Of a stretch of 64,000 nucleotides of DNA, positions 29,980-62,896 are shown piece by piece. The position numbers and the translations under genes were made by a program. This DNA is from a virus (Duplodnaviria > Heunggongvirae > Uroviricota > Caudoviricetes), in the IMG/VR virus record IMGVR_UViG_3300033153_012477, positions 55,437 to 119,436 of that record. One strand, written 5' to 3'. Below the pieces are notes generated by a model. It searched no databases. It saw only the letters and a program-made list of their open reading frames with translations, and was not told where the DNA came from. Each line of letters begins with the position of its first letter. Within the stretch, counting starts at the first letter, position 1.

Positions 29980-29981
29980 TA

Positions 29982-31216: not shown

Positions 31217-31228
31217 CCTATCCTCCTT

Positions 31229-31258: not shown

Positions 31259-31274
31259 TATATCAATAAATTAC

Positions 31275-32693: not shown

Positions 32694-32703
32694 AAGAACC
32701 TCC

Positions 32704-33252: not shown

Positions 33253-33261
33253 TGTTACCCC

Positions 33262-34884: not shown

Positions 34885-34887
34885 AAG

Positions 34888-35283: not shown

Positions 35284-35416
35284 TCCTTTTGCTCATTACG
35301 TTAATGATCTAGAATGTAGCAATGCTTGAATAGTTTGGAAAGATAAATCTATATAGACCTGAAAAGAATTTTTAGGTAAGCGTCAAATATATGGAATTAG
35401 TATCTATGTTGCAGTG

Positions 35417-36193
35417 TCAAAATCCAAATTTAGCTGAAAGTATAACAGTGTTAGTATAAGGATCCGCAAACAACGAAACGATAGGTAAATGCTGATCCCT
35501 TAGTTTCCCCTCACTGTCAAAATGGAAAGAATACATAGTGTACCCAATCAATGCCCCTAGTGAGCCTCCTACTAAAACATCTGTGAGATAGTGTTTCTTC
35601 CCACCTATCCTAGTAGCTCCTACAAAGCTTGCAAAGACGTAGGGAACCGTGGCGTAAGCATATCGCATAGGAGAGTTCTCGTGTGTTCTATATAGGTCCG
35701 TGGCTATCCATGACGCTGCAGTAAACGCTTGAGCAGTGTGTCCACTAGGAAAGGATAAGTTATTTCCACCATCAGGTCTTTCTCTACCGAAAGAATACTT
35801 TGCAATAGTTATAGAGCCGTGCATCATAAGTAAGGCTTCTGTGTAAACAAAGGACTTTTCCCAACTATATTTAGGGCGTAGGACAAGATAATAAGCGTAG
35901 GGTACTCCTATTATCCATTTAGCACCTTTATCTCCGAGAGTATAAGCCCATCTTGGGACATCAAAGTTATGTTTTTTATCTATCTCTGGTACAAAAATTA
36001 TAGGACGAGATGTTTCGGGTCTAACTAAGATTAGAGCTGTTCCAATAATACCTAATGCTAAAGAAGAATACCGAATCTGACTTGGAGAGACATCCCACCT
36101 AATGTCTACTGGCTCAAAGTAAGTCTCTCCTTTAAGGTTCTGCGATATAATTATCAATATAATTACTAATATAAAACTTCGTATATATTCCAT
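35417..36193 (-). CDS. PAP2-family (type 2 phosphatidic acid phosphatase-like) membrane phosphatase
   Basis: PAP2 motifs 'RERPDGG' (KxxxxxxRP), 'PSGHTA' and 'TRIGGKKHYLTDVLVGG' (SRxxxxxHxxxD), plus multiple TM helices. Confidence 0.7.
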   Translation of the reverse strand: MEYIRSFILVIILIIISQNLKGETYFEPVDIRWDVSPSQIRYSSLALGIIGTALILVRPETSRPIIFVPEIDKKHNFDVPRWAYTLGDKGAKWIIGVPYAYYLVLRPKYSWEKSFVYTEALLMMHGSITIAKYSFGRERPDGGNNLSFPSGHTAQAFTAASWIATDLYRTHENSPMRYAYATVPYVFASFVGATRIGGKKHYLTDVLVGGSLGALIGYTMYSFHFDSEGKLRDQHLPIVSLFADPYTNTVILSAKFGF

Positions 36194-50431: not shown

Positions 50432-51282
50432 GGAGTCTCCATATTTTTTATAAGCAAGTGTTTATTTTGAATAAGCATATTTTTAAAGTGCATATCAAGT
50501 TTAAGGTTTGAGTTTAACTTATCTTTGAACTTGTTACATGAATCTAAAAATATTAAAGAAGTATTTAATGACTTATTTTTTTTTGCCAAATCTTGAGACA
50601 CTAAGAGCAGCATGTTGTTGAGAAGAATAATATCTAAGTCTTTATGAGATAAGTACCAATCAATAATATTAGAATAATCTAAATCAGCGAAAGTGCTTAC
50701 AAATAAATGGATTTCTTGGTATATTTCATCCACACCTAGATTATCTAACGTAGCTTTATTACCAAGACACCCTCCCATCATCTTCACTTCTGTGTCTGAT
50801 AGGTTTGGCATATATCTCTTCAGATCTTTTATAGGGCTGAACTCAAAAGATATACTCCTAGAACAAATAGTATTTATGACTAATTCTTTATTTTCTGCTA
50901 ATAATATAAAGTAGGTATTGTCAGGAGCATCCTCAAAAACTTTAAGACAAGCATTAGCAGACTCCTTGTTCATGAGATCCACATCTCGCAAAATAACATA
51001 TTTACTATCTAGCTCAAAAGCAGTATCGCTAATGTAGTCCTTCATCTGGTCTATGAGTTCTAGTTTAAAAGTTTTTGTCTCTGGCTCTAACACTAAAATA
51101 TCGGGGTGAGACTCTAACCTAGAGTTAAAAGAACCTTTGTATATCTCATCCAGTAAATTAAGGGCGGTGTGTTTTTTACCAACACCTTTTGGTCCTGTAA
51201 AAAGTAACACGGTTGGAAGTTTATTTTTTAATGTCTTTAGCGAAGATTTTATGTCCTCGTGTCCTAGAATATCTTTTAGCAT
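50428..51282 (-). CDS. AAA+ clamp-loader subunit (DNA polymerase III delta-prime / HolB-like)
   Basis: 'LLFTGPKGVGKKHTA' P-loop and 'KESANACLKVFEDAPDNTYFILLAENKELVINTICSRSISFEF' matching the HolB sensor-1/SRC region (NALLKtLEEPp...fiL......ll.TI.SRC). Confidence 0.65.
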   Translation of the reverse strand: MLKDILGHEDIKSSLKTLKNKLPTVLLFTGPKGVGKKHTALNLLDEIYKGSFNSRLESHPDILVLEPETKTFKLELIDQMKDYISDTAFELDSKYVILRDVDLMNKESANACLKVFEDAPDNTYFILLAENKELVINTICSRSISFEFSPIKDLKRYMPNLSDTEVKMMGGCLGNKATLDNLGVDEIYQEIHLFVSTFADLDYSNIIDWYLSHKDLDIILLNNMLLLVSQDLAKKNKSLNTSLIFLDSCNKFKDKLNSNLKLDMHFKNMLIQNKHLLIKNMETP

Positions 51283-52238
51283 TATTGGATCTCTTCTATA
51301 TAATTATCTAAATCTTTTTTCCAAGTGCCCATACGACCACACAGTATTGTTTTTAGACTATTGTTGTTAAGTGCTCCGAATTTAGGACGAGCTACTTTAC
51401 CGTGAGGTAAGTCTTTTACTGGCGTTACGCAGTCCTCGAATCCCATTTTTTCTAGAAAATATTTACCACATTGATATCTTGAACAGTAGTCATTGTGAGT
51501 GAGGTGAAATATCCTCCCCTTTAATTTGCGAGGGTCCTTCTTGAAAAAAGCTCTATAAACCACATCGCTTATATAAGAGACACTACAGGGAGACCCCATT
51601 TCATCTGAAACAATCGATAAGGGTTTACCTTGCCTTGCTACTGATAAAATTTTACTAAAAAATGTCTTATCATTATTTCCGAATAACCACTGTAGCCTGA
51701 AGATGGTATACTTAGGAGAGTCTTTCATTTTTTTCTGTATAGCTCGCTCACCATGTAACTTGGAAAGACCATAATAGTTAATAGGATTAGTCTCGTCAGA
51801 CTCCGAGTAAGGAGTCGCACTTATCCCATCAAATACAAAGTCAGTACTGAAGTGAACTAAATGGATATTATATTCTAAACATACTCTTGCCAGTACTCCC
51901 GCTGCTTGAGCATTAACTAAGTAAGCTTGTTTCTGGTCTTCTTCTGCTTTTGGAACATCAGTATATGCAGCACAGTTAAAAAGGTATTTGATGCTTGGAT
52001 TCAAAAATTTTTTCATAGATTCATAACTAGCTATGTTAAAATTGGGGCGGTCACCTACAATTACTTCTAAATTTTTTTCTTCTAAGTAAGATTTTAAACG
52101 AGATCCTAGTAAACCTCTTGAACCTGTAATCGCTATCTTCATTTTAATGCTCGCTCTTTTTATAAACCTGTATAGGTCTATAATAGTAAAGAACAAGACT
52201 ATGGAAAGTACAGTATTTTTTTCAATAAGTTGGTCCAA
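51282..52238 (-). CDS. dTDP-4-dehydrorhamnose reductase-like (RmlD family) NAD(P)-dependent reductase; true start probably the internal Met ('MKIAITGSRG')
   Basis: 'MKIAITGSRGLLGSRL' Rossmann motif, 'YGLSKLHGE' (YxxxK), and the size and layout of RmlD. The first 32 annotated residues are likely not translated. Confidence 0.6.
   Translation of the reverse strand: MDQLIEKNTVLSIVLFFTIIDLYRFIKRASIKMKIAITGSRGLLGSRLKSYLEEKNLEVIVGDRPNFNIASYESMKKFLNPSIKYLFNCAAYTDVPKAEEDQKQAYLVNAQAAGVLARVCLEYNIHLVHFSTDFVFDGISATPYSESDETNPINYYGLSKLHGERAIQKKMKDSPKYTIFRLQWLFGNNDKTFFSKILSVARQGKPLSIVSDEMGSPCSVSYISDVVYRAFFKKDPRKLKGRIFHLTHNDYCSRYQCGKYFLEKMGFEDCVTPVKDLPHGKVARPKFGALNNNSLKTILCGRMGTWKKDLDNYIEEIQ
52168..52180 (+). 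promoter_or_regulatory. Copy of the recurring CCTGTATAG(A/G)T motif in the long divergent intergenic region
   Basis: 'aaaCCTGTATAGGTCTATAATag' in the 52143-52536 intergenic region. A second related element, 'ACCTGTAaaaaagaaattttagatTTATATAGATTTT', lies at 52441-52476, about 60 nt upstream of the helicase gene. Confidence 0.3.
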
Positions 52239-52536: not shown

Positions 52537-54504
52537 ATGGACAGTCAAATAATATTTAAGGGGATAATTGAGTACTTACACTGGTATATTGATATACCTC
52601 GTATAACTGCTACAGATATTGCAAGCTATATAGACCTAGAGGATTTAAATTCTCTATGGGAAGTAGAACTCGATGCGTATATTCCAGATTATAAAATACA
52701 AGCCTTACGAAGTAAACTTGCAACGCACCCATTAAAACCTGCTGCCTTCTTATTAGGTATTACTTTCACTCCTAGCATTACAGATATTATTCTTAAACAT
52801 TATGGGGGTTCCGATTCTTTAGCAAAGGATATTGAAGAGAATCCTTATGTGTTAATAGATATTGAAGAACTCTCTTTTAAAAAGTTAGATAAAGTAGCTA
52901 CTGAGGTTCTGAAAATCCCTACTGATTCACCTTTGCGTTATAAAGCTTTAGTACATTACCAATTAGCTAGTCAGAGTTTCAAAAACGGACACCTATATAC
53001 TTATTTAGAGACATTTATTAATTCACGATTTGAAGTAAACATCAGTAGAGTTAACCTGAAGACCTATTTAAAAGAATTAATTATAGAAGGTAAAATTATC
53101 CTAGAGGGTAAAAAACTATACACGTCTCACCATTACAAAGCTGAAAAATATTCAGCACAGATACTTGCTAAACTGATTAATATTTCAGGACGACATCTTT
53201 TCTTTGAAGGAGTAGATGTAGATGAATACATAGCAGGGTACGAGAAGATTCAAACTGAAAATATTAACGGGGGCGAGTGGAAAAATCTTACATGGAAAGA
53301 AAAACAATTTACACTTTCTCCAGAACAGAGAATTGCTGTTGATAAATTTTTTAACGAGAATTTTTTCATAGTTACTGGGCTTCCTGGGACGGGTAAGACC
53401 ACTGTCACCAAAGCATTGGTTGATATCTCCACTAGTAGGAGTTTAAAAGTAACTTTAATGGCTCCTACAGGGATAGCTGCTAAAAGATTAGCTGAAACTT
53501 GCGGGCATGACGCATCAACTATTCATAAAGAACTAGGATTTGATGGTGTAGTTTGGAAGAGAGGCATAGATGACCCTCTCGATTCTGATGTTATTATAGT
53601 TGATGAGTTCAGCATGGTTGACCAAGTCCTTTTGTACAAACTCTTACAAGCGTTACCTAAAAAAGAATTTGTACTAGTGTTTATCGGAGATTCTGCTCAG
53701 TTACCTTCAGTTGGTCCAGGAAATGTTCTTAGGGAATTAACTAATAGTGGTAAAATACCTCACATATCTTTGACTAAAATATTTAGACAGGAAGATACCT
53801 CTGACATTGTTTTGAATTCTCATCAAATAAATAAAGGCAGCACTAAGTTGTTCAATACTAAAAAAGATTTTATCTTTATGGAGATTGAGCATGAACAGGA
53901 TACTTTGAAAAAGCTAATAACTGTTGCAGAAGCATTACAAGAGAAGAACTATCAAATTTTAAGTCCAACTTATAAGGGTATTTTAGGAGTCTCTAACCTC
54001 AATCGAACTCTGCAAGAAACTTTTAATCCAAACTTTGATTCTGCCAGAGAGTTTAAAACAGAGATTTGTACCTTTCGTGAAGACGATCAGGTTATGGTGA
54101 TTAAAAATGATTACAAGAACGAAGTATATAATGGGGAGCGGGGTACACTCGTTAACATTAATCAAAGAAATAGGAAACTAGAAATTTTTATTGATGGGAA
54201 AACAATAGAGTACACTTTTAGAGACGCTTATGCCATGCTTGCCTTAGACTACGCAAGAACTATACATAAAGCACAGGGTCAGGAGTATGACTATGTAATT
54301 CTTCCTTTCGTTAATTATTTCTCGGTACAACTACAGCGAAATCTTATATACACCGCAATTACTAGAGCTAAGAAAAAAGTATTTATACTTGGACATCAGA
54401 AAGCTCTTTTTAGATCAATACAAAATAATAACGTATCAAAAAGAAATACAATTTTATCAAGTAGGTTACTGACCCATTTGAAAGAACTTAAGGAGAACTC
54501 ATGA
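52537..54504 (+). CDS. SF1B RecD-like ATP-dependent DNA helicase
   Basis: Walker A 'VTGLPGTGKTT', 'LMAPTGIAAKRL', Walker B 'IIVDEFSMVD', 'GDSAQLPSVGPGNV', 'LTKIFRQ' and a C-terminal 'YAMLALDYARTIHKAQGQEYDYVI' (helicase motifs V/VI). Confidence 0.8.
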   Translation: MDSQIIFKGIIEYLHWYIDIPRITATDIASYIDLEDLNSLWEVELDAYIPDYKIQALRSKLATHPLKPAAFLLGITFTPSITDIILKHYGGSDSLAKDIEENPYVLIDIEELSFKKLDKVATEVLKIPTDSPLRYKALVHYQLASQSFKNGHLYTYLETFINSRFEVNISRVNLKTYLKELIIEGKIILEGKKLYTSHHYKAEKYSAQILAKLINISGRHLFFEGVDVDEYIAGYEKIQTENINGGEWKNLTWKEKQFTLSPEQRIAVDKFFNENFFIVTGLPGTGKTTVTKALVDISTSRSLKVTLMAPTGIAAKRLAETCGHDASTIHKELGFDGVVWKRGIDDPLDSDVIIVDEFSMVDQVLLYKLLQALPKKEFVLVFIGDSAQLPSVGPGNVLRELTNSGKIPHISLTKIFRQEDTSDIVLNSHQINKGSTKLFNTKKDFIFMEIEHEQDTLKKLITVAEALQEKNYQILSPTYKGILGVSNLNRTLQETFNPNFDSAREFKTEICTFREDDQVMVIKNDYKNEVYNGERGTLVNINQRNRKLEIFIDGKTIEYTFRDAYAMLALDYARTIHKAQGQEYDYVILPFVNYFSVQLQRNLIYTAITRAKKKVFILGHQKALFRSIQNNNVSKRNTILSSRLLTHLKELKENS

Positions 54505-56702
54505 GGTATTACGCAATTAAAGAGAATCTATTTTTAGTAGAGCAAGAAATTCCAGGAACGGACACACCTGTCATACCTGATCCTGTGAATCACTTGTGGA
54601 TATATGACAGAAGCTACTCTATGAGTTATGACCTACCCGCTTTAGCTAAAGACTTAATCTACAAAGCTAAGGAAATTCCAAAAGGGGACACGCTCTCAAT
54701 AGGGTGGTTCTCTAGTGAAGGTGAATATAATTTCATCTTAAAGGGTTTCAAGGTAACGGACTCCTCAGATTATAAAATCCTAGAAAATGCAATCAATAAA
54801 AATAAAACTCCCGTAGGTTGTACCTGTTTTTCAGAAATACTAACAGACACCAAAACTGTAATTGAAGATTTATCGGTTATCTCAGATAAATTCTCATTAA
54901 TGTTTTTCTCGGATGGGTATCCTGTAGTTAGAAACTATTCAAAAGAGATTGAATCCATCTACACGGCTGTAGAGAGCTTAGAGGGTAAGATTACCTCAAG
55001 TTGTATGATTGGTTATGGTAACTACTATAATAAAAATCTTATGATGGAAATGGCAGAAAGATTAGGAGGTTCACTTATTCATAGTAATAACCTGCCTCAA
55101 TTTAGCATTGCCCTAGAAGACCTAATTAAAAATTCGGGAAGTACCACAGGAAAAACTCCTATTGAATTCACAGGTGCAAAACCTAACAAAGATATCATCT
55201 TTTCACTGAACGTTAACTTTAAAGAAAGTGCTTCAATTAATGTTTATCGACAAAAAGAAGATGATACTGTAATGTACGCCCCAACAACAGGTACGTCTAA
55301 AGAACACATCTATTTTTTAACTGATAAGCTTTCAGGAAATGAGGAAGAGGTATTAATTCAAGAGAATAACTTCCTAAGACCTACTAAAAAAGAATCAATG
55401 ATACAAGCTGTTTACGCTCTTAGTTGCATCCTTAATCAGAAAACTAAAACAGATGAAGCTCTTGAGGTCCTAGGTTCACTAGGGGATACTAAGCTAGTAG
55501 ACGTGCTCTATAATGCCTTCACAAACTCGGAACACGGGGATGCAGAAGAAGCTTTAAAGAAAGCTATCCACACTCCGAAAGAAAGAATACAACATAAGTA
55601 TGACACAAGTTACCTACCTGCCTCGGATGCCTTTTGCCTTTTAGATGTTATTGAGATGCTATTAAAAGATGAGAACGCTTCTTTCTACCCCTATCATGAA
55701 GACTTTAAGTATAAAAAGATTAGTCGGGGTACTAAAACCAAAGGTGATTTCCCTAAGTTTGTTGCAGATAAGAACCCAAGATGTGATCTATCTACCCTTG
55801 CTTGGCACAAAAGTAAGCTTAATCTATCTGTGAAAGCTAATATTAAAGGTACTATTGATCTCGGTGATGAAGCAGAGAAATTAGGTTTTGCTAAAAACTA
55901 CCCAACTCACGTTTTTAGAAACTATGCTATCGTAAAAGATGGGTTCCTAAACACTCCTTGGCTTCCTGTAACCATATCCAAAGAAACTTATGAAACATTA
56001 AGTGCAAAGGGTGTTATCTGGACGAATGGAGCTTGGGAAGAAGATAGAGTGTATGTTCTAGAGCTAAACAAGATTCCAGTTATGAATAGAGCTATTGCTG
56101 ATGGGAAAACTTCAGCAACTGAGCTTTCTAATAAAGTTTTTGAAGAGATTAAATTACAAGCTCAGTTAAAAGTATTAAACGATGCTAAGAAATCACTTGA
56201 AGAGAAAACTGCTTATGTAGACAGTACTTTTGCAGGACTCTCTGAAGAGCAGATTGAGTTTCTAAAAAATAAAGGAATAGGTAAAAATGGTTTCTCCCCA
56301 GCAATGGAATCTCAAGAGCCTGTAGACTATTACTTTGCTAAAGAGTTCTCCATCAAGGTAAAAAGTTTTTCAAGCTTACCTTCTGTGAAAGATACTAGAG
56401 CTAGAATTGCTTCAGGAAAACTCAGACCTGCTGACGAAGTGATGAAATTAGGCATCGACCTATATGACAGTTCTCCAGTAGCTAAACAGTCTGACAAGAT
56501 AAAACTTACTTGGGTAGAGGAAGAGGTTACTAAATTGAAAACAAATCTACTTGATGTGCGATTTGACATTCAACGTACTAAATTTGCCATCATATTAGGT
56601 AAAAAATGGTTTGATGAGTTTGAAAGTAGAGATGACTCTACATTAGAGATAGATGGTAAAACTTTCACCATTTCCGTGGAAGAGAAAAAAGTAACTATCT
56701 AA
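54501..56702 (+). CDS. von Willebrand factor A (vWA) domain protein, 733 aa
   Basis: N-terminal MIDAS 'WIYDRSYSMSYD' (DxSxS), followed by 'GCTCFSEIL' (T) and 'MFFSDGYP' (D). Confidence 0.5.
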   Translation: MRYYAIKENLFLVEQEIPGTDTPVIPDPVNHLWIYDRSYSMSYDLPALAKDLIYKAKEIPKGDTLSIGWFSSEGEYNFILKGFKVTDSSDYKILENAINKNKTPVGCTCFSEILTDTKTVIEDLSVISDKFSLMFFSDGYPVVRNYSKEIESIYTAVESLEGKITSSCMIGYGNYYNKNLMMEMAERLGGSLIHSNNLPQFSIALEDLIKNSGSTTGKTPIEFTGAKPNKDIIFSLNVNFKESASINVYRQKEDDTVMYAPTTGTSKEHIYFLTDKLSGNEEEVLIQENNFLRPTKKESMIQAVYALSCILNQKTKTDEALEVLGSLGDTKLVDVLYNAFTNSEHGDAEEALKKAIHTPKERIQHKYDTSYLPASDAFCLLDVIEMLLKDENASFYPYHEDFKYKKISRGTKTKGDFPKFVADKNPRCDLSTLAWHKSKLNLSVKANIKGTIDLGDEAEKLGFAKNYPTHVFRNYAIVKDGFLNTPWLPVTISKETYETLSAKGVIWTNGAWEEDRVYVLELNKIPVMNRAIADGKTSATELSNKVFEEIKLQAQLKVLNDAKKSLEEKTAYVDSTFAGLSEEQIEFLKNKGIGKNGFSPAMESQEPVDYYFAKEFSIKVKSFSSLPSVKDTRARIASGKLRPADEVMKLGIDLYDSSPVAKQSDKIKLTWVEEEVTKLKTNLLDVRFDIQRTKFAIILGKKWFDEFESRDDSTLEIDGKTFTISVEEKKVTI

Positions 56703-56711
56703 GGGGGTAAT

Positions 56712-57251
56712 ATGGATAAGGTATTGATTGTTGTAGACATGCAAAATGATTTTCTTCTTAACGAGGGGAGTCTAAATTTAGGGCACGACACTAAGGAACT
56801 TCGTGAAAAAATGGCGGAGTTTGTAGATAATTTTGAAGGCAGGCTCTACTTTACTTATGATAATCACCAAGAAGACGACTGCGAGTTTGCAGTCTTCCCA
56901 AAGCACTGTGTAGAGCACTCTAATGGGCATAAGTTAGTTAATGAGCTTAAAGCTGTTTTAAGAGGTAAAGATTTCGAAACCCTAGCAAAGAAGTCTTACA
57001 CTGGCGGAGCAATAACCAACTTAGCAAACGAACTTGCAGACAATGCTATCAAAGAGATTCATGTGGTAGGGGTCTGTGTTCATATCTGTGTGCATGATAT
57101 TGTAGGTACTCTTGTGAATCATACAAAAAATGTTCATGGTTATATTCCAAAAATAGTCATTCACAAAGATTTAGTAGATGACTTTAATCCTGAAATGGCA
57201 GAATTTGCATTAAAAAGAATGGAAAGCTTATATGGTGCGGAGTTAGTGTGA
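56712..57251 (+). CDS. pncA: Nicotinamidase / isochorismatase-family hydrolase (PncA-like)
   Basis: 'LIVVDMQNDF' (PncA 'LLVDLQNDF'), 'FPKHCV' (PncA 'WPDHCV') and a catalytic-Cys region 'VVGVCVHICV'. GGGGG ribosome-binding site. Confidence 0.65.
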   Translation: MDKVLIVVDMQNDFLLNEGSLNLGHDTKELREKMAEFVDNFEGRLYFTYDNHQEDDCEFAVFPKHCVEHSNGHKLVNELKAVLRGKDFETLAKKSYTGGAITNLANELADNAIKEIHVVGVCVHICVHDIVGTLVNHTKNVHGYIPKIVIHKDLVDDFNPEMAEFALKRMESLYGAELV

Positions 57252-57487
57252 AAGATTTAGAGCGTAAGGATCCAAGGAAAGTTATTCCCCACGGTCCTTA
57301 CTGTTACTCGGGATCTAGGAATCCCGCAGACAAGAATTACAAACCTTGTCCTTATTGGGAACTTCGGGGAACTGAAGAAGAATACTATGGTTGCTGTTCC
57401 TATCTAGATATATCAGACGATGATGGGGAAGGTTTAAGTCATCTCTGGGATCAAGTGAAAGAGTGTGGGATTAATTGTGACTACTAA
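57248..57487 (+). CDS. Small Cys-rich hypothetical protein
   Basis: 79-aa ORF between pncA-like and nadM-like, overlapping both. Confidence 0.3.
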   Translation: MKDLERKDPRKVIPHGPYCYSGSRNPADKNYKPCPYWELRGTEEEYYGCCSYLDISDDDGEGLSHLWDQVKECGINCDY

Positions 57488-58052
57488 GAAATATAAAACA
57501 GGACTAGCTTGTATGAGATGCCAACCTTTTCATATAGGGCATCAGAGATTAGTCAACAAGATGATTTCAGAATGTGAGACATCTTTTGTAATTATAGGTT
57601 CTGCTAATGAGTCAGGAACAGACAGAAACCCCATCTCTTATGTAAACAGAAAAAGAATGGTTGAGAACTGCTATGTGGAAGAGTGGGTGTCGGGGAACTT
57701 AGTGATCTCTCCCGCAGTAGATATTAATGACTTCCCTAATTGGAGTAAGTTTATTCTAAACATGATTCCTTTCATAGTTAATAAGTATTATGCAGGATCA
57801 AAAGAAGATGCCTCTGCTTTTGAACTTTACCCTGTAGAAAATTATCCAAAACTTGAAATAGAAATTTTAGACAGAGATGATTTTCCTGTAACCGCTACAG
57901 AAATAAGAAAACTTTTTAAACAAGATAATCCAGCATGGAAATTACATATTCCTAAAGATAATATAGAAATAACTGAAAGAATATTAAACGGGAAACATCC
58001 TTTCCCTGAGTTAGAAAAACTTGAAAAAGAGATGGGTGGGGAGATAATATGA
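57465..58052 (+). CDS. nadM: NadM-type nicotinamide/nicotinate-mononucleotide adenylyltransferase
   Basis: 'MRCQPFHIGHQRLV' ((H/T)xGH nucleotidyltransferase motif; archaeal NadM 'GRFQPFHKGH') and 'FVIIGSANESGTDRNPISYVNRKRM' (NadM 'IIGIGSAQ.SHT..NPFT..ER'). Confidence 0.65.
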   Translation: MGLIVTTKKYKTGLACMRCQPFHIGHQRLVNKMISECETSFVIIGSANESGTDRNPISYVNRKRMVENCYVEEWVSGNLVISPAVDINDFPNWSKFILNMIPFIVNKYYAGSKEDASAFELYPVENYPKLEIEILDRDDFPVTATEIRKLFKQDNPAWKLHIPKDNIEITERILNGKHPFPELEKLEKEMGGEII

Positions 58053-59212
58053 TTATTCAAAGTTTACTAGACAACGACCTTTACAAATTCACTATGATGC
58101 AGGCATTCCATCATAATTTTCCTGAGGCTCAATCTAAACATAGATTCATACTCAGAAGCAAAGGGGTGAACTTACTTCCTTACAAAAAACAAATCGAAGA
58201 AGAGATAGAGCATATGTGCTCCCTTAGTTTTAAACCAAAGGAGTTAGAGTATCTCAGCAGTCTGGGTTTTATGAAGCCCGACTATTTAGACCTTCTTGAA
58301 GATATTAAGCTTAAAACTAGAGGGATGAAGATAACAGAAGAATCTGGAAACCTCGCTATAACATATGAAGGGAGTCTCGTTCAAAAGATATTATTTGAAG
58401 TCCCTGTAATGGCAATCATCAGTGAAACTTATTTGAGAGATAAGGTAGATATTAAACAAGAAGCTCATAAGATTGGTTATGCTAAAATTAAAGAAAAAAT
58501 AGAAAAATTGGAAAATGCGGGAGTTCCAATAAAATTTGCGGATTTTGGAACTCGAAGAAGATTTTCAAGAGAGTGGCACGATGTGGTTGTGAATCTATTT
58601 TCAAATCTTGCACCAGATTATTTTGTAGGAACTTCAAATGTTTTATTAGCTATGAATCATAAGGTTAAACCTATTGGCACTATGGCACATGAGTGGATTC
58701 AGGCAGGGCAAGCTTTAGGGGAAGTGCAGTTAAAAAATAGTCAGAAGTTTATGTTCGAGACTTGGGTAAAGGAATATAGAGGAGACTTAGGAATACTTTT
58801 AACAGACACTATAGGAATGGAGCCTTTCCTTAAAGATTTCGATAAGTATTTCGCTAAACTTTATGACGGGTGTCGCCACGATTCTGGTTGCCCCTACACT
58901 TGGGGAGATAAGTTAATTGAACATTATAAGAGCTTCAATATTGACCCTACCACTAAAACAGCAGTTTTTAGCGATGGTTTAAATTTTGATAAAATGATTG
59001 AAATTGATAAACATTTTCACGGAAAAATTAACACCTCCTATGGTATTGGTACTAACGTTACCAATGATGTGGGTGTCCAACCACTGTCTATGGTTATCAA
59101 ACTTGTGGAGTTAAACGGTAATGCAGTAGCTAAGATTTCGGATGAGCCTATTAAGGCAATCTGTGAGGATCCAGAATTTTTAAGCTACCTCAAGAAAGTT
59201 TATGGTGTGTAG
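58049..59212 (+). CDS. pncB: Nicotinate phosphoribosyltransferase
   Basis: Near-collinear match to E. coli PncB by eye: 'LLDNDLYKFTMMQA', 'DFGTRRRFSREW', 'FVGTSNV', 'GTMAHEWIQA', 'GCRHDSGCP', 'AVFSDGLNFDK', 'SYGIGTN' and 'IKLVELNGNAVAKISDEP'. Confidence 0.9.
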   Translation: MIIQSLLDNDLYKFTMMQAFHHNFPEAQSKHRFILRSKGVNLLPYKKQIEEEIEHMCSLSFKPKELEYLSSLGFMKPDYLDLLEDIKLKTRGMKITEESGNLAITYEGSLVQKILFEVPVMAIISETYLRDKVDIKQEAHKIGYAKIKEKIEKLENAGVPIKFADFGTRRRFSREWHDVVVNLFSNLAPDYFVGTSNVLLAMNHKVKPIGTMAHEWIQAGQALGEVQLKNSQKFMFETWVKEYRGDLGILLTDTIGMEPFLKDFDKYFAKLYDGCRHDSGCPYTWGDKLIEHYKSFNIDPTTKTAVFSDGLNFDKMIEIDKHFHGKINTSYGIGTNVTNDVGVQPLSMVIKLVELNGNAVAKISDEPIKAICEDPEFLSYLKKVYGV

Positions 59213-59901
59213 TGGTTACTTTAGAACAAGTACACTTAGATAGATCTAAAGGGACTGGTTTAGATTTTGGGATAAGAGATGGGTACTCATGGAAAGGGTA
59301 CTATATTAAGAAATACCATATATTTGATCCAAAAACAGGAAATATTATAATAAGTAATATTGAACACCTGAAAGAAAAGAATAATGAAGAAATAGAATCT
59401 CTCGAATTAGGCTCTGACATACAATCCGTTGAGTTTATGACGGGTATCCCTAACTGTGATTTAATCCGAAAAAGAAAACCTATTCTAAAATCTGCAGATA
59501 TTTTTTATATTCCATCTGGAGATAAAATCAAAACTAGAAACTACCTGGGTTCAAAACGAAGATCTTTTACTCATGGTGAAAAATTAGTTTGTGAGATATA
59601 TTTACCTTCCACACTGTTTAAAAAAATAGTGAAGATAAGAAATAAAGTAGACAAGTTCCCAACCTTTAAAGGTATCTTTGAACAGCATAAGATATATTAC
59701 AGAAACTTTGTATTTACGATAAAATCTAATTACCAGATAAAAAATTTAGATAAAAATAAAGAATTTTTAAAAGATTGGAAAAGTGTGACAAGAGGATCTA
59801 GATGGGGAGAGCCTCTGGTTACCGAGAATTTGAAAGATACAATTTTACAAGACATGAGAAACTTTATTAAAAAATATGAAAACTTTGAAGTGGAGAATTA
59901 G
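59212..59901 (+). CDS. Hypothetical protein embedded in the NAD module
   Basis: 229-aa ORF, start coupled to the pncB stop. No motif. Confidence 0.45.
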   Translation: MVTLEQVHLDRSKGTGLDFGIRDGYSWKGYYIKKYHIFDPKTGNIIISNIEHLKEKNNEEIESLELGSDIQSVEFMTGIPNCDLIRKRKPILKSADIFYIPSGDKIKTRNYLGSKRRSFTHGEKLVCEIYLPSTLFKKIVKIRNKVDKFPTFKGIFEQHKIYYRNFVFTIKSNYQIKNLDKNKEFLKDWKSVTRGSRWGEPLVTENLKDTILQDMRNFIKKYENFEVEN

Positions 59902-59903
59902 TT

Positions 59904-60758
59904 ATGATTAAGTATGTGAACAGACTTATTGAGAATATAAAAGATGATATTAGATCCGAAATGGATATTGCAGTGCTAGGTCTTAGTGGGGGTGTTGATT
60001 CTACCGTCTGTGCTGTTTTAGCTACCTTAGCTTTAGGACCAGAAAGAGTATACTGTGTTCATATGCCTTATGGGGAAGTTGATCTCACCGAGGGTAAATT
60101 TAATAGTAATTCTATTAAAATAGCAGAAAAATTAAAAGTACAATCTCTATACAGACCTATTGAAAATGCAGTTAATGCTCTCAATACTGTTTTATCCTTT
60201 GCAAGTGATACCTTTGCTTTCGCAAAAGACCCCTTAAGTGATGTTAACTTAGGTAACTCAAGATCAAGAGTAAGAATGTGTGTTCTATACGGCATTGCTC
60301 ACCACTTAGAGACAACGCTTGAAAAAAATGTGCGAGTTTTAGGAACGGGTAATTTATCCGAGGACTATATTGGCTATTTTACAAAATTCGGAGACGGGGG
60401 TGCTGACATCTTTCCAATTGGAGAGTTGTTTAAGTCTGAAGTTTATCAACTAGCAGAGCATTTCATAAAAACAACTTTAATATCTAAAGAGATGATAGAT
60501 TATAACCCTTCAGCAGGTCTTTGGTCAGGACAACTTGATTCTTCGGAAATAGGGTATACTTATGATGAGATGGAACCGTCTATAAGAAAAACAAGAAATC
60601 CAGAAACAGGGTTTGCTTATACAGGATATGAAAAAATAATAAGTGGTATTAACCATAATAGGTCAAACATGGACAATATTGTCTTAAAAAAACACTTTAA
60701 CAATCAACATAAACTCAAAAGTGTACCCACTTTACCCTTGAGGGAGTTTTGTGACTAA
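59904..60758 (+). CDS. nadE: NH3-dependent NAD+ synthetase
   Basis: PP-loop 'IAVLGLSGGVDSTVCAVLA' (SGGxDS), 'LGTGNLSEDYIGYFTKFGDGGADI' and a size typical of NadE (284 aa). Confidence 0.8.
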   Translation: MIKYVNRLIENIKDDIRSEMDIAVLGLSGGVDSTVCAVLATLALGPERVYCVHMPYGEVDLTEGKFNSNSIKIAEKLKVQSLYRPIENAVNALNTVLSFASDTFAFAKDPLSDVNLGNSRSRVRMCVLYGIAHHLETTLEKNVRVLGTGNLSEDYIGYFTKFGDGGADIFPIGELFKSEVYQLAEHFIKTTLISKEMIDYNPSAGLWSGQLDSSEIGYTYDEMEPSIRKTRNPETGFAYTGYEKIISGINHNRSNMDNIVLKKHFNNQHKLKSVPTLPLREFCD

Positions 60759-61533
60759 AGTATATAACAAAAACTCCCTTATTTATAAAATAACCAACAC
60801 TAGGAATAACAAAGTTTACATTGGAAAAACAACTTCAAGTTTAAAAAAAAGAAAGGGTCAATATTTTTCGGAATCTTTTAAAACTAAACGAAATAGACTG
60901 ATTAATAAAGCTATTCGAAAGCATGGTTGGGATTCTTTCTCTTGGGAGATTTTATGCTATTGTGATAACCTAGATGAATTAGCTAAAAAAGAAAAGGAAT
61001 TTATAAAAAAATACAAATCTTTCTATAAAGAAAATAAGAGTATTATAGCAAAACATGGCTATAATATGACAGAAGGTGGAGAGGGAAACTTAGGTTATGT
61101 CTGGACAAATGAAGCAAGAGAAAAAATAAAAGGAAAAAATAATCATAGATTTGGAAAAAAATTAACAAAAGAACAAAGAGAACACTTAAAAAATATTAAT
61201 TTAAACAGGAAACATTCTAAGTCATCTATATCAAAATTGAAAAAAACACTAGAGATATATCACTGGAATAGGAAAAATTTAGATATTGCTTTAATTACAT
61301 TCCTATTTTTTAAGGAGTTTTCATTTAATAAGATGACCTCTATTTATAATATTATTAAAAAAGAGAATCTAAGCAACTCTCCCTTCAAAAGAATAACTAA
61401 GAAAATAGGAATTAGCATGAACGCTAAAAATCAAAATGACTATAAAAAGAAACAAAATATTTTTGTAAGAAAAAATAAAATAGAAGAAGTTTTGATAAAA
61501 GCTTTACTGAACATTAAAAAAAATAAGCAATGA
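60751..61533 (+). CDS. GIY-YIG homing endonuclease
   Basis: 'LIYKITNTRNNKVYIGKTTSSLKKR...H' is the GIY-YIG core. 'YNMTEGGEG' plus a Lys-rich DNA-binding C-terminal half, as in T4 Seg/I-TevI-like enzymes. Confidence 0.65.
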   Translation: MTKVYNKNSLIYKITNTRNNKVYIGKTTSSLKKRKGQYFSESFKTKRNRLINKAIRKHGWDSFSWEILCYCDNLDELAKKEKEFIKKYKSFYKENKSIIAKHGYNMTEGGEGNLGYVWTNEAREKIKGKNNHRFGKKLTKEQREHLKNINLNRKHSKSSISKLKKTLEIYHWNRKNLDIALITFLFFKEFSFNKMTSIYNIIKKENLSNSPFKRITKKIGISMNAKNQNDYKKKQNIFVRKNKIEEVLIKALLNIKKNKQ

Positions 61534-61808: not shown

Positions 61809-62405
61809 ATGGAAAGACCAATCTGTTATTTAGATGTGGACGGGGTACTCTATTACTATCCAAAAGAAGGTTCAGAAGACTTCAAAACTGAAGGAGTATA
61901 TGGAGGCATAAGACCTTATATTATGGGACTCCTACAAACAATTCACAATTGTGGTTATGAGTTAAGAATGCTCACATGTAACCGTAAAGGGGGGCATCTT
62001 TTATTAAACTCATGCCTGCACAGCGGATACTACCCTTTAAAATGGAGAAGAGATAAAGATACTAATGATAAAAAACTATTAGAATTCAATATGCCCGATG
62101 ATATTCCCTCTTGTTATCTAAATTATGACTACAAAAATGAACTAGATCACGGAGAGTACAGTAAAGCTGCTTTTGTCGATTTCAGTAGAGAATTTATCTG
62201 GATAGAAGATGGAATACTTGACAAAGAAGAGGAGCTTCTAGAAGAAAAAGGCATTCTTGACTGCTACTGTTATGTAGACAGGTTTAAAAGAGAAGAGTTA
62301 CTAAAAGTAATGGATTGGATCAGCAATCATCGCCTCACTAAAAAGTATTATGACAGTAATATAGAGATACCAACTAACCGAGATGAGCCGAGGTATCAAG
62401 GATGA
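61809..62405 (+). CDS. Putative HAD-like hydrolase
   Basis: N-terminal 'ICYLDVDGVLYY' resembles HAD motif I (DxDGxL). Weak. Confidence 0.35.
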   Translation: MERPICYLDVDGVLYYYPKEGSEDFKTEGVYGGIRPYIMGLLQTIHNCGYELRMLTCNRKGGHLLLNSCLHSGYYPLKWRRDKDTNDKKLLEFNMPDDIPSCYLNYDYKNELDHGEYSKAAFVDFSREFIWIEDGILDKEEELLEEKGILDCYCYVDRFKREELLKVMDWISNHRLTKKYYDSNIEIPTNRDEPRYQG

Positions 62406-62896
62406 GCGATATTTTCTTAAATTTAGGATGCAGTGAATATAAACTACCTAACTTTATAAACGTAGATATAGATCCAAATGTAAAACCAGAACTTTGTATA
62501 GATCTAAACAAACTGGGGGATCATTTTGAGGAAAGATCTGTAGACTTTATCTTCGCAGGGCATGTTTTTGAACATTTCAAAAAAGAAGACTCTCAAAAAT
62601 TAATGGAAACCTGTTTCAAGATATTAAAGCCGCACCGAATATTGCTTGCCGTAGTTCCTGACTATAGTAAGTGTGCGGATCAGCACATAGCTACTGCAGA
62701 AAGAGTAATCTTAGCAGGAGGGGACCACCTTATGTTATTTCATAAAGAAAGATTAAGAGCTATGTTGGGCAAAGCTGGGTTCAGGCATGCTTATCACGTA
62801 GAAGATCTTCATGAAATCCCATATCTTCTTGTCTCAAATATAAATGATCCCGTACCAGACTCTTGGCAAACAGGATTTGTTGCCTTAAAACTATAA
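62402..62896 (+). CDS. Class I SAM-dependent methyltransferase (paralog-like to 39080-39745)
   Basis: 'FLNLGCSEYKLPNFINVDI' and 'DFIFAGHVFEHF'. It has the same architecture as the minus-strand methyltransferase. Confidence 0.5.
   Translation: MSDIFLNLGCSEYKLPNFINVDIDPNVKPELCIDLNKLGDHFEERSVDFIFAGHVFEHFKKEDSQKLMETCFKILKPHRILLAVVPDYSKCADQHIATAERVILAGGDHLMLFHKERLRAMLGKAGFRHAYHVEDLHEIPYLLVSNINDPVPDSWQTGFVALKL

What the first reader, a model, noticed from the sequence alone, without database searches (positions are those of the whole stretch)
56712..60758. Complete Preiss-Handler NAD salvage pathway encoded by the virus (PncA, NadM-type adenylyltransferase, PncB, NadE)
Four enzymes sufficient to rebuild NAD+ from nicotinamide are clustered on one strand: nicotinamidase (56712-57251), NaMN/NMN adenylyltransferase of the archaeal NadM type (57465-58052), nicotinate phosphoribosyltransferase (58049-59212) and NAD synthetase (59904-60758). 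Phages have been reported with NAMPT/NMNAT (NadV/NatV) or ADPR-based NAD reconstitution pathways that counter NAD-depleting defence systems (Thoeris, DSR, CBASS/SIR2/TIR effectors). A full deamidated route starting from the nicotinamide released by NADase effectors is a different solution. Together with the macro-domain protein at 4518-5024, this suggests investment in NAD/ADP-ribose homeostasis during infection. Two unknown ORFs (57248-57487, 59212-59901) are embedded and may be novel accessory factors.
Basis: partly seen in the sequence, partly recalled or inferred. Interest (0 to 1): 0.7.

Follow-up and report, generated by a model that had tools for sequence, protein, structure and literature searches.

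The report
Phage-encoded nicotinamide-to-NAD salvage gene cluster
A large bacteriophage carries four neighbouring genes that together should rebuild the cofactor NAD from nicotinamide; the cluster is real, but the same gene set is already annotated or published in other large phages, and its proposed role against bacterial immunity has never been tested.

Summary
The ORFs lie at the stated coordinates on the + strand. They encode a nicotinamidase-type isochorismatase-family hydrolase (triad and metal site intact), a NadM-type adenylyltransferase, a type I nicotinate phosphoribosyltransferase (above curated cutoffs) and a single-domain NH3-type NAD synthetase. They are tightly packed inside a phage replication-gene block and are syntenic in independent metagenomic phage contigs. 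PncA and PncB show dN of about 0.1 with saturated dS.

The kind is not new. Bacillus phage G and Sinorhizobium phage Phosso carry the same four families clustered. Li et al. 2024 described Preiss-Handler clusters in "NAD-jumbo phages". Of 80 IMG/VR pncB loci, 16 hold all four families and 18 more hold PncA+PncB+NadE.

The 79-aa ORF belongs to a general Cys-rich family of large phages, not to the NAD pathway. The 229-aa ORF is a backbone gene of this phage group: hypervariable, with no match to any solved fold, and absent from NAD clusters elsewhere.

NadM comes and goes between lineages, and the order of the last two steps cannot be decided from sequence. The counter-defence role is plausible by analogy with NARP2 but untested. 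I rate it a new member of a known kind, with modest interest.

The parts
56712..57251 (+). PncA-type nicotinamidase (179 aa), predicted to convert nicotinamide to nicotinate plus NH3
   Evidence: Pfam PF00857, 2.6e-19. Best PDB hits are B. subtilis PncA 5ZN8 and P. horikoshii PncA 1ILW. The catalytic D9/K93/C126 and the metal ligands D50/H52/H65 align with P. horikoshii D10/C133 and D52/H54/H71, and are invariant in three lineages. 82% identical to L012, with dN 0.12 and saturated dS. The NCBIfam PncA equivalog cutoff is not reached (23 vs 174 bits).
57248..57487 (+). Small Cys-rich ORF (79 aa), function unknown. It is a facultative passenger, not specific to the NAD pathway.
   Evidence: No Pfam, NCBIfam or PHROG hit. 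The family has 66 clusters. It is present in L001, L005 and L012 and absent in L002/L003. In distant large phages it lies next to a metallophosphatase (L008) or a macro-domain gene (L010), not next to NAD genes.
57465..58052 (+). NadM-type (archaeal-type) NaMN/NMN adenylyltransferase (195 aa; the start may be the GTG at 57477)
   Evidence: NCBIfam PRK01153 1.5e-17 and TIGR01527 6e-15, both below cutoff. PDB M. thermautotrophicus NMNAT 1EJ2, 1.9e-10 over the full length. R18, H23-I-G-H26 and T145-E-I-R148 are conserved with the L002 orthologue. The gene is present in the window, L012 and L002, and absent in L001/L005.
58049..59212 (+). PncB, type I nicotinate phosphoribosyltransferase (387 aa): nicotinate + PRPP (+ATP) gives NaMN
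   Evidence: NF003704 522 bits (cutoff 379); TIGR01514 448 bits (cutoff 270). Pfam NAPRTase_N plus NAPRTase. 86% identical to L012, dN 0.095. The GTMAHE motif, with H214 invariant across five phage PncBs.
59212..59901 (+). Conserved phage protein of unknown function (229 aa). It lies between PncB and NadE in every lineage that carries both genes, but is probably a backbone gene rather than a pathway component.
59904..60758 (+). NadE, single-domain NH3-dependent NAD synthetase family (284 aa): NaAD + ATP + NH3 gives NAD, or possibly NaMN to NMN
   Evidence: Pfam PF02540, 3.7e-49. TIGR00552 154 bits (cutoff 64). The GLSGGVDS ATP-pyrophosphatase motif is aligned. Best PDB hits are P. horikoshii NadE 2E18 (1e-28) and F. 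tularensis 3FIU (1.7e-26). There is no glutaminase domain.
60751..61533 (+). GIY-YIG/NUMOD3 homing-endonuclease-like gene, a mobile insertion at the 3' edge of the module
   Evidence: Pfam GIY-YIG 2.2e-9, NUMOD3. It is absent at this position in L001, L002 and L005. In L012 a GIY-YIG gene sits instead between the 229-aa ORF and NadE.
52537..56702 (+). Upstream context: a RecD/Dda-like helicase (52537-54504) and a vWA-domain protein (54501-56702). The NAD genes follow with a 9-nt gap, so they are probably in the same transcription unit.
   Evidence: PHROG 4412 and 2426. 506 phage records carry the vWA homologue. Gene junctions overlap or are separated by 9 nt or less. Promoter- and terminator-like sites are at chance level.
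62402..62896 (+). Methyltransferase (164 aa), the most constant neighbour of the 229-aa ORF family across the phage group. It marks the far edge of the variable island.
   Evidence: Pfam Methyltransf_23/11. 57-83% identical orthologues lie downstream of the 229-aa family in L001, L002, L005, L012, L013, L015 and L016.

Best explanation
This is an auxiliary metabolic module of a large lytic-type phage (source contig about 193 kb). It encodes a complete deamidated (Preiss-Handler-type) salvage route from nicotinamide to NAD.

The predicted steps are:
1. PncA hydrolyses nicotinamide to nicotinate plus NH3.
2. PncB condenses nicotinate with PRPP, stimulated by ATP, to give NaMN.
3. The NadM-type adenylyltransferase converts NaMN plus ATP to NaAD.
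4. The single-domain NadE amidates NaAD with ATP and free NH3 to give NAD.

The genes are packed stop-to-start behind replication genes (helicase, vWA protein) and are probably co-transcribed with them. The module therefore raises or maintains the NAD pool while the phage replicates. Because it starts from nicotinamide, the product of NADase action, it would also tend to refill NAD after depletion by SIR2/TIR-type defence effectors.

What is shown: family membership, intact catalytic motifs, conserved synteny and purifying selection. What is inferred: substrate specificities, the order of the last two steps, expression timing and any effect on the NAD pool or on defence systems.

The two embedded unknown ORFs are most likely not pathway components.
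For: - Family assignments.
- PncA: the triad D9/K93/C126 and the metal site D50/H52/H65 are intact and invariant in three lineages. These are the defining nicotinamidase residues (PMC13398362).
- Other motifs: NadM HxGH and TEIR; NadE SGGxDS; PncB above equivalog cutoffs.
- Selection: the module is syntenic in L012, L001/L005 and L002/L003, with divergence similar to the neighbouring replication genes. dN is 0.095-0.12 with saturated dS for PncA and PncB.
- Functional coupling: the one lineage lacking PncB, NadM and NadE (L015) has a PncA-like gene that has lost the Asp, both metal positions and the Cys.
- Recurrence in unrelated large phages: phage G, Phosso, and 16 of 80 IMG/VR pncB loci with all four families, including the four-gene operon in L072 beside phage topoisomerase II, helicase and polymerase.
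- Classical order: lineage L001/L005 and 27 of 80 IMG/VR loci keep NadE next to PncB with no phage adenylyltransferase nearby, and 6 pair them with a NadD-type enzyme. This fits NadE acting on NaAD made by a NaMN-preferring NadD. Archaeal and Acinetobacter NadM work with a conventional NaAD-specific NadE (PMC3376133).
- Not host contamination: GC content is uniform across the module and the window, and phage genes flank it on both sides.
Against: - No enzyme activity, expression or NAD measurement exists for this cluster or for any phage PncA/PncB/NadE cluster that I could find.
- PncA and NadM score well below NCBIfam equivalog cutoffs, so their substrate specificity is extrapolated from motifs.
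- NadM-family enzymes often prefer NMN, and the second-best solved relative of the NadE is the Francisella enzyme (3FIU). PMC3376133 describes the Francisella NadE homologue as an NMN synthetase, so the order of the last two steps could be reversed.
- The route costs PRPP plus three ATP per NAD. It also removes nicotinamide, which is a product inhibitor of sirtuin-type enzymes (general knowledge), so it is not obviously the best answer to fast NAD depletion.
- Only 64 kb of the roughly 193-kb contig was visible, so other NAD genes (NadV, Nudix, Prs) elsewhere in the genome cannot be excluded.
Confidence: 0.65

Rival explanations
1. The same four enzymes run in the Francisella-type order. PncA and PncB make NaMN, the NadE homologue acts as an NMN synthetase (NaMN to NMN), and the NadM-type enzyme then adenylates NMN to NAD. 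NaAD is never an intermediate.
For: - The adenylyltransferase is of the NadM type, not NadD.
- PMC3376133 states that NadM-family enzymes use NMN efficiently, and that in F. tularensis the replacement of NadD by NadM goes with adaptation of the NadE homologue to NMN synthetase.
- The phage NadE's second-best solved relative is the Francisella enzyme 3FIU (96 bits, against 104 for P. horikoshii NadE).
- Phage NadM-type enzymes normally partner NAMPT and act on NMN (PHROG 3462 annotation; NARP2 description in PMC13464706).
Against: - The best solved relative is an archaeal NadE (2E18), and the archaeal NadE that has been tested (M. jannaschii) is a NaAD-specific NAD synthetase with no NMN synthetase activity.
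- Sister lineage L001/L005 and many IMG/VR phages keep NadE with PncB but without NadM, and some pair it with NadD. That makes sense only if NadE uses NaAD.
- NadM is the most dispensable and most divergent module gene (36-65% identity).
Confidence: 0.2
2. One reading: the module is primarily a counter-defence system, a further 'NAD reconstitution pathway'. It would be selected because it rebuilds NAD from the nicotinamide released by Thoeris, DSR, SIR2 or TIR NADases, with the embedded unknown ORFs as accessory factors.
For: - NARP1, NARP2 and NARP3 show experimentally that phage-encoded NAD synthesis overcomes NAD-depleting defences. NARP2 also starts from nicotinamide (abstracts listed; PMC13464706).
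- Li et al. 2024 proposed the same role for jumbo-phage NAD pathways.
- Including PncA makes nicotinamide, the NADase product, the entry point.
- The 229-aa ORF is hypervariable (31% identity between otherwise 82-86% identical relatives; dN 0.67 against about 0.1), a pattern often seen in host-interaction genes.
Against: - There is no experimental evidence for the deamidated route in any phage; the NARP preprint does not mention it.
- The route is slow and costly in ATP.
- The module sits among replication and nucleotide-metabolism genes rather than in an anti-defence island.
- The phage also encodes several NAD(P)-dependent sugar-nucleotide enzymes, so plain cofactor supply is an adequate explanation.
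- The 79-aa ORF is not NAD-linked elsewhere.
- The 229-aa ORF occurs without the NAD genes, is absent from other NAD clusters, and has few conserved polar residues.
Confidence: 0.3
3. The cluster is not a functional viral pathway. Either it is host DNA captured or mis-assembled into the contig, or the isochorismatase-family gene is not a nicotinamidase and the route starts only from nicotinate.
For: - PncA reaches only 23 bits against the E. coli-type PncA equivalog model (cutoff 174), with weak hits to RutB and biuret hydrolase models.
- Some INPHARED pncB hits (Acinetobacter MD-2021a, Moraxella Mcat17) look like host-flank or bin material.
Against: - The same gene order appears in independent assemblies from different samples, flanked on both sides by phage genes.
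- GC content is uniform.
- Selection is purifying.
- The metal-binding D-x-H...H site is intact; from general knowledge, this site distinguishes nicotinamidases from other isochorismatase-like hydrolases.
- The top solved relatives are all nicotinamidases.
Confidence: 0.05

Closest known systems
Bacillus phage G (NC_023719) cluster gp273-gp283
   Same: A same-strand cluster holds an isochorismatase-family nicotinamidase-like gene (gp275, catalytic and metal residues intact), a nicotinate phosphoribosyltransferase (gp277), an adenylyltransferase (gp281) and NAD synthetase (gp283), with small unknown ORFs interspersed. It is a cultured jumbo phage.
   Different: Phage G uses Bacillus-type enzymes: a type II PncB (NF006695, 653 bits), NadD rather than NadM (TIGR00482, 142 bits) and a PRK00768-type NadE. 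It also has Nudix and KptA-like genes in the cluster. The interspersed ORFs are unrelated to the window's 79-aa and 229-aa ORFs. PncA is 32% identical and the PncB was not picked up by tblastn, so the cluster was assembled independently.
Sinorhizobium phage Phosso (PV764938) genes 368-377
   Same: It has the same four families, including a NadM-type adenylyltransferase: a PncA-like 'hydrolase' (368), NMNAT (369), type I PncB (375) and NH3-dependent NadE (377), all on one strand within 6 kb.
   Different: The gene order differs, and the cluster includes a MutT/Nudix gene and several other small ORFs. Protein identity is low (PncB 31%, NadE 32%). The genome is 469 kb.
'NAD-jumbo phages' of Li et al. 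2024 (Microbiome 12:268, PMC11662467), e.g. the Kuafu_71 pncB-nadD-nadE cluster
   Same: This is a published description of phage-encoded Preiss-Handler gene clusters, with the suggestion that they supply NAD and may counter NAD depletion.
   Different: The published example uses NadD and starts from nicotinate; pncA is mentioned only in passing. Those phages come from animal guts and have genomes over 200 kb. The evidence there, as here, is annotation only.
NARP2 (NAMPT/NadV plus NMNAT; Osterman et al. 2024) and the Vibrio phage KVP40 NadV/NatV pathway
   Same: Both are phage-encoded salvage routes from nicotinamide to NAD that use a NadM-family adenylyltransferase. NARP2 has been shown experimentally to overcome NAD-depleting defence.
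   Different: NARP2 is a two-step amidated route through NMN, using a nicotinamide phosphoribosyltransferase. The route here has four steps through nicotinate, NaMN and NaAD, using a nicotinate phosphoribosyltransferase plus nicotinamidase and NAD synthetase. No functional data exist for it.
Cellular NadM + NadE networks: archaea and Acinetobacter (NaMN to NaAD to NAD) and Francisella tularensis (NaMN to NMN to NAD)
   Same: These networks combine a NadM-type adenylyltransferase with a short single-domain NadE in place of NadD (PMC3376133). The phage NadM and NadE are closest to archaeal and Francisella structures.
   Different: They are chromosomal housekeeping pathways fed mainly by de novo NaMN. 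In the phage, the pathway is fed by PncA and PncB, and NadM is dispensable between lineages.

Membership tests
Nicotinamidase (PncA) within the isochorismatase-like hydrolase superfamily | Isochorismatase-family domain | tested here: met
   PF00857, 70 bits (cutoff 27), covering residues 4-176.
Nicotinamidase (PncA) within the isochorismatase-like hydrolase superfamily | Asp-Lys-Cys catalytic triad | tested here: met
   D9 and C126 align with P. horikoshii D10 and C133. K93 aligns with the Lys of B. subtilis PncA. All three are invariant in three phage lineages. The triad definition is taken from PMC13398362.
Nicotinamidase (PncA) within the isochorismatase-like hydrolase superfamily | Asp-x-His...His metal-binding site | tested here: met
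   D50/H52/H65 align with P. horikoshii D52/H54/H71. They are invariant, and lost only in the L015 copy.
Nicotinamidase (PncA) within the isochorismatase-like hydrolase superfamily | Score above the curated equivalog cutoff (NCBIfam NF008623) | tested here: not met
   23.3 bits against a cutoff of 174. The protein is of the short B. subtilis/archaeal type, not the E. coli type.
Nicotinamidase (PncA) within the isochorismatase-like hydrolase superfamily | Hydrolysis of nicotinamide to nicotinate | not testable with these tools
   Requires an enzyme assay.
Type I nicotinate phosphoribosyltransferase (PncB) | Full-length match above curated cutoffs, with both NAPRTase domains | tested here: met
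   NF003704 522 bits (cutoff 379) and TIGR01514 448 bits (cutoff 270). PF17767 plus PF04095.
Type I nicotinate phosphoribosyltransferase (PncB) | Conserved His in the GT(M)AHE motif. This is the ATP-coupling phosphohistidine in enterobacterial PncB, according to my recollection of the literature. | tested here: met
   H214 lies in G210-T-M-A-H-E and is invariant in five phage PncBs. The equivalence to the phosphohistidine rests on memory and was not checked here.
NadM-type (archaeal-type) NMN/NaMN adenylyltransferase | Nucleotidyltransferase (H/T)xGH motif and C-terminal (S/T)xxxR motif | tested here: met
   H23-I-G-H26 aligns with HRGH of 1EJ2, and T145-E-I-R148 aligns with TEVR. Both are conserved in L002.
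NadM-type (archaeal-type) NMN/NaMN adenylyltransferase | Closest to NadM models rather than NadD or NadR, over the full length | tested here: met
   Top hits are PRK01153 and TIGR01527, covering residues 13-173. The NadD model TIGR00482 reaches only 19 bits. PDB hits are all NadM-type.
NadM-type (archaeal-type) NMN/NaMN adenylyltransferase | Score above curated cutoffs | tested here: not met
   63.7 bits against a cutoff of 127, and 55.1 against 181.
NadM-type (archaeal-type) NMN/NaMN adenylyltransferase | Substrate preference (NaMN or NMN) | not testable with these tools
   Family members range from NMN-preferring to bifunctional (PMC3376133).
NH3-dependent NAD synthetase (single-domain NadE) | NAD_synthase domain above cutoff, with the SGGxDS ATP-pyrophosphatase motif | tested here: met
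   PF02540 167 bits. TIGR00552 154 bits (cutoff 64). G-L-S-G-G-V-D-S is aligned.
NH3-dependent NAD synthetase (single-domain NadE) | No glutaminase (nitrilase-like) domain | tested here: met
   The protein is 284 aa with a single domain. The full-length equivalog PRK13980 scores 179 bits, below its cutoff of 255.
NH3-dependent NAD synthetase (single-domain NadE) | NaAD rather than NaMN as substrate (NAD synthetase versus NMN synthetase) | tested here: inconclusive
   The scores against P. horikoshii NadE (104 bits) and the Francisella enzyme 3FIU (96 bits) are nearly equal. Gene co-occurrence favours NaAD. An assay is needed.
NARP1 / NARP2 / NARP3 phage NAD reconstitution pathways | Their defining gene pairs: NARP2 (nicotinamide phosphoribosyltransferase + NMNAT), NARP3 (PnuC + NadR-like) (PMC13464706), and NARP1, whose gene pair (Adps + Namat) I recall from the published paper rather than from a text read here | tested here: not met
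   The cluster's phosphoribosyltransferase is a nicotinate type, PncB. No PnuC or NadR-like domain appears in the ORFs examined, but no NARP1-specific model was searched. Only 64 kb of the genome was visible.
Phage Preiss-Handler NAD biosynthetic gene cluster ('NAD-jumbo phage', Li et al. 2024) | pncB, an NaMN adenylyltransferase and nadE encoded together on a phage genome | tested here: met
   The viral context is shown.
Phage Preiss-Handler NAD biosynthetic gene cluster ('NAD-jumbo phage', Li et al. 2024) | Genome larger than 200 kb | tested here: inconclusive
   The longest contig carrying the identical 229-aa protein is 192,712 bp. Its completeness is unknown.

The most novel reading that the evidence does not exclude
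The deamidated nicotinamide-to-NAD route could be a fourth, mechanistically distinct phage NAD-reconstitution strategy, selected to outlast SIR2/TIR NADase defences. It would be assembled stepwise in this phage group: a dead PncA only; then PncA+PncB+NadE; then the same plus NadM. The hypervariable 229-aa protein, which has no match to any solved fold and sits between PncB and NadE, could be a host-interaction or counter-defence factor travelling with the module.
Probability: 0.25. Interest if true: 0.6.

Novelty: new member of a known kind. Interest (0 to 1): 0.3.

Why it matters
NAD depletion is a widespread bacterial abortive-infection strategy, and three phage NAD-rebuilding pathways (NARP1-3) have been demonstrated so far. 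The deamidated route seen here is common in large phages: it occurs in phage G, in Phosso, in the gut 'NAD-jumbo phages' and in about a fifth of the IMG/VR pncB loci I sampled. It has never been tested.

This window adds a compact NadM-type version, with natural variants (plus or minus NadM, and one lineage with a dead PncA) that could guide experiments. Conceptually, though, it adds another instance of something already annotated and published. Its value is as a candidate for functional testing rather than as a discovery.

Tried and rejected
1. Single-protein pattern scans of IMG/VR with PncB and with the 229-aa ORF found nothing, as did the seven-sequence alignment. The 17-sequence alignment was too divergent for pattern design. 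Only the PncB alignment worked.
4. I considered the 229-aa ORF as a non-homologous adenylyltransferase that might fill the gap in the NadM-less lineage. I rejected this: it has no nucleotide-binding motif, only Y130, P132, N182 and F218 are invariant, and it occurs without any NAD genes.
5. I tried to decide between NAD synthetase and NMN synthetase from specificity residues of the Francisella enzyme. Sorci et al. 2009 is not held in the library and my memory of the residues is not reliable enough, so I left the question open.
6. Exact look-ups of P0001, P0003, P0022 and P0024 contigs returned nothing, so the source contig outside the window could not be inspected.
7. The promoter and terminator scan gave only chance-level matches.
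8. dN/dS could not be computed for most genes because dS is saturated. Only dN values are used.
9. The supplementary tables of Li et al. 2024 are not held.

Full report
**1. Observation**

- 56712-57251 is an isochorismatase-family protein (PF00857, 2.6e-19).
- 57465-58052 is a cytidylyltransferase-like protein. Its best curated matches are the archaeal-type NMN adenylyltransferases PRK01153 (1.5e-17) and TIGR01527 (6e-15), both below their cutoffs.
- 58049-59212 is a type I nicotinate phosphoribosyltransferase, well above cutoffs: NF003704 scores 522 bits against 379, and TIGR01514 scores 448 against 270.
- 59904-60758 is a single-domain NAD synthetase (PF02540, 3.7e-49; TIGR00552, 154 bits against 64).
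- 57248-57487 (79 aa) and 59212-59901 (229 aa) match nothing in Pfam, NCBIfam or PHROGs.
- The macro-domain ORF at 4518-5024 (- strand) is also real (PF01661, 31.5 bits), but it lies 52 kb away.

**2. Is it viral, and is the cluster a unit?**

The window has no tRNA genes and a uniform GC content of 0.32-0.37. It carries phage genes throughout:

- a lysin;
- a clamp-loader subunit and a thymidine kinase;
- a RecD/Dda-like helicase, and a vWA protein whose homologues occur in 506 phage records, among them Ackermannviridae-like and AR9/PBS1-like phages;
- a large AAA ATPase of phrog_15585;
- a GIY-YIG homing endonuclease.

There is no close relative among deposited phages. The longest contig carrying the identical 229-aa protein is 192,712 bp.

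The NAD genes follow the helicase and vWA genes with a 9-nt gap. They are joined to each other by overlaps of 1 to 23 nt or a 2-nt gap. Promoter- and terminator-like matches are at chance level. I infer that the genes are co-transcribed with the replication block.

**3. Catalytic competence**

- PncA. The closest solved relatives are nicotinamidases: B. subtilis PncA 5ZN8 (identity confirmed in PMC13398362), P. horikoshii PncA 1ILW and S. pneumoniae nicotinamidase. In the printed alignments, D9, C126 and the metal ligands D50/H52/H65 coincide with P. horikoshii D10, C133 and D52/H54/H71. K93 coincides with the Lys of the B. subtilis enzyme. These are the defining nicotinamidase residues. All six are invariant in three phage lineages.
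- NadM. It aligns over its full length with Methanobacterium NMNAT. It keeps R18, H23-x-G-H26 and T-E-I-R148.
- NadE. It keeps the SGGxDS motif, and it is nearly equidistant from P. horikoshii NadE (2E18, 104 bits) and the F. tularensis enzyme (3FIU, 96 bits).
- PncB. It keeps the GTMAHE histidine.

**4. Comparative genomics of this phage group**

The 229-aa ORF served as a rare marker: it has 7 hits in 5.8 billion sequences and 14 among 1.84 billion representatives. With it I recovered related contigs. The gene order in each lineage is as follows.

| Lineage | Order between the vWA gene and the methyltransferase |
|---|---|
| L012 (closest relative) | PncA, 81 aa, NadM, PncB, unknown, GIY-YIG, NadE |
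| L001 = L005 | PncA, 73 aa, PncB, unknown, NadE (no NadM) |
| L002/L003 | PncA, NadM, PncB, unknown, NadE (no small ORF) |
| L014 (short contig) | PncB followed by two tandem members of the unknown family |
| L015 (L013 and L016 are shorter contigs showing only the unknown and methyltransferase) | PncA-like, small ORF, C92 peptidase, unknown (no PncB, NadM or NadE) |

Identity of each window protein to its L012 orthologue:

| Protein | Identity to L012 |
|---|---|
| vWA | 82% |
| PncA | 82% |
| small ORF | 85% |
| NadM | 65% |
| PncB | 86% |
| 229-aa unknown | 31% |
| NadE | 57% |
| methyltransferase | 83% |

dN is 0.095-0.12 for PncA, PncB, vWA and the methyltransferase, with synonymous sites saturated. 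dN is 0.67 for the unknown ORF.

In L015, the lineage without PncB and NadE, the PncA-like gene has lost the catalytic Asp, both metal positions and the Cys.

From this I draw four conclusions:

- (a) The NAD genes are under purifying selection and are inherited within this phage group.
- (b) The interval between the vWA gene and the methyltransferase is a variable island, in which NAD genes have been gained or lost one module at a time.
- (c) PncA integrity tracks the presence of the downstream enzymes, which supports their working together.
- (d) NadM is dispensable.

**5. The two unknown ORFs**

The 79-aa Cys-rich ORF belongs to a family of 66 clusters. In other large phages it lies next to unrelated genes, and it is missing from L002. 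It is therefore not a component of the NAD pathway.

The 229-aa ORF lies between PncB and NadE in every lineage that carries both genes. However, it also occurs without them, next to the methyltransferase. It is absent from all 80 IMG/VR pncB loci. Only four columns are invariant across 17 sequences.

I regard the 229-aa ORF as a fast-evolving backbone gene of unknown function. A role linked to the NAD module cannot be excluded, but nothing supports one.

**6. Mechanism**

The most likely chemistry is the classical sequence:

1. nicotinamide to nicotinate (PncA);
2. nicotinate to NaMN (PncB);
3. NaMN to NaAD (NadM);
4. NaAD to NAD (NadE, using NH3).

By stoichiometry, the NH3 released by PncA matches the NH3 consumed by a glutaminase-less NadE. 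This point is an inference.

The alternative is the Francisella order, NaMN to NMN to NAD. It is a real possibility because the adenylyltransferase is NadM-type. PMC3376133 documents both arrangements in cells: archaea and Acinetobacter use the classical order, and Francisella uses the reversed one.

I favour the classical order by roughly 3 to 1, for two reasons. First, L001/L005 and 27 of 80 IMG/VR loci keep NadE beside PncB with no phage adenylyltransferase, and 6 pair them with NadD. That arrangement requires NadE to act on NaAD. Second, the one archaeal NadE that has been assayed is NaAD-specific.

**7. What is already known**

- Bacillus phage G carries an annotated same-strand cluster of isochorismatase hydrolase (gp275), nicotinate phosphoribosyltransferase (gp277), nicotinate-nucleotide adenylyltransferase (gp281) and NAD synthetase (gp283). 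I confirmed these by NCBIfam and by the PncA residues.
- Sinorhizobium phage Phosso has the same four families, including a NadM-type enzyme.
- The huge phage LR756501 has pncB adjacent to nadE.
- Li et al. 2024 reported that 174 of 668 gut jumbo phages encode complete salvage or Preiss-Handler pathways. Their example is a pncB-nadD-nadE cluster. They mention phage pncA and suggest a counter to NAD depletion.
- IMG/VR holds 342 pncB-encoding stretches. The best 80 break down as follows:

| Gene families within 10 kb of pncB | Loci |
|---|---|
| All four, NadM-type adenylyltransferase | 11 |
| All four, NadD-type adenylyltransferase | 5 |
| PncA + PncB + NadE | 18 |
| PncB + NadE | 9 |
| PncA + PncB | 11 |
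| PncB + NadD (with or without NadE) | 2 |
| PncB alone | 24 |

- All 15 PncA copies I checked keep the Asp, the D-x-H...H site and the Cys, and 12 also align a Lys at the K93 column.
- In L071-L073 the four genes are consecutive and overlapping. L072 comes from a 233-kb contig with phage topoisomerase II, a DnaB-like helicase and a DNA polymerase alongside.
- None of the experimentally established pathways uses this route. These are NARP1 and NARP2 (Osterman et al.; one search shows no mention of nicotinate, PncA or NadE) and NARP3 (PnuC + NadR). I found no functional study of a phage PncA/PncB/NadE set.

**8. Verdict**

The cluster is a genuine phage NAD salvage module, under selection.

It is a new member of a kind that is already annotated in cultured jumbo phages, published for metagenomic ones, and frequent in IMG/VR. 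The counter-defence interpretation is reasonable by analogy but remains untested for this route in any phage. It competes with plain cofactor supply for a phage that encodes several NAD(P)-dependent sugar-nucleotide enzymes.

The 'novel accessory factor' idea is not supported for the 79-aa ORF and is unsupported, though not excluded, for the 229-aa ORF.

Interest is modest at 0.3. The useful by-products are the natural series of module variants and the hypervariable protein with no solved-fold match.

Noticed in passing
window 5028-28319 (+), plus 12648-13754 (-) and 51282-52238 (-): A large island resembling sugar or nucleotide-sugar modification. It has at least seven radical-SAM ORFs (6713-7813, 8384-9607, 9617-10762, 15899-16975, 17774-18745, 21881-22960, 27315-28319), a GT2 glycosyltransferase, a DegT aminotransferase, a split transketolase (21075-21878 and 25551-26399), a PIG-L deacetylase and several SDR epimerase/reductase genes. 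This density of radical-SAM genes is unusual for a phage.
   Followed up: partly
window 59212-59901 versus L012 6001-6693: The 229-aa ORF is only 31% identical (dN 0.67) between two phages whose flanking genes are 82-86% identical (dN about 0.1). It is either hypervariable or an exchanged allele. The confident AF2 model has no PDB fold match.
   Followed up: yes
window 60751-61533; L012 6668-7546: GIY-YIG homing-endonuclease genes sit at different junctions of the NAD module in the two closest relatives: after NadE in the window, and between the unknown ORF and NadE in L012. NadE itself is only 57% identical between them. This suggests endonuclease-associated recombination at this end of the module.
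   Followed up: partly
L015 356-925: A distant relative retains a PncA-like gene that has lost the catalytic Asp, both metal positions and the Cys. It has no PncB, NadM or NadE. This is either a decayed or an exapted pseudo-enzyme.
   Followed up: partly
L014 480-1981: Two tandem, divergent members of the 229-aa family lie directly after PncB.
   Followed up: no
L010 4571-5315 (a 220-kb ENA contig): In an unrelated large phage, the homologue of the 79-aa Cys-rich ORF overlaps the end of a macro-domain gene. It lies near cpYpsA, nucleoside deoxyribosyltransferase and thymidylate synthase genes. A link to ADP-ribose or nucleotide metabolism is possible but was seen only once.
   Followed up: no
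window 28885-36193 (-): A run of unusual accessory genes: an RlaP-like nucleotidyltransferase (28885-29979), an SPFH/flotillin-like protein (31275-32693), a PEP-utilising/PPDK-like enzyme (33262-34884) and a PAP2 phosphatase (35417-36193).
   Followed up: no
L001 12589-16533; L002 309-3410 and 10370-12733: Relatives of this phage carry inteins or homing-endonuclease domains in ribonucleotide reductase, in the RecD-like helicase and in an AAA ATPase. The window's helicase (655 aa) has no intein.
   Followed up: no
window 4518-5024 (-): A macro-domain protein (PF01661, 31.5 bits; PHROG 335 'phosphatase'). It sits next to the sugar-modification island, 52 kb from the NAD module. No evidence found here links the two.
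   Followed up: partly
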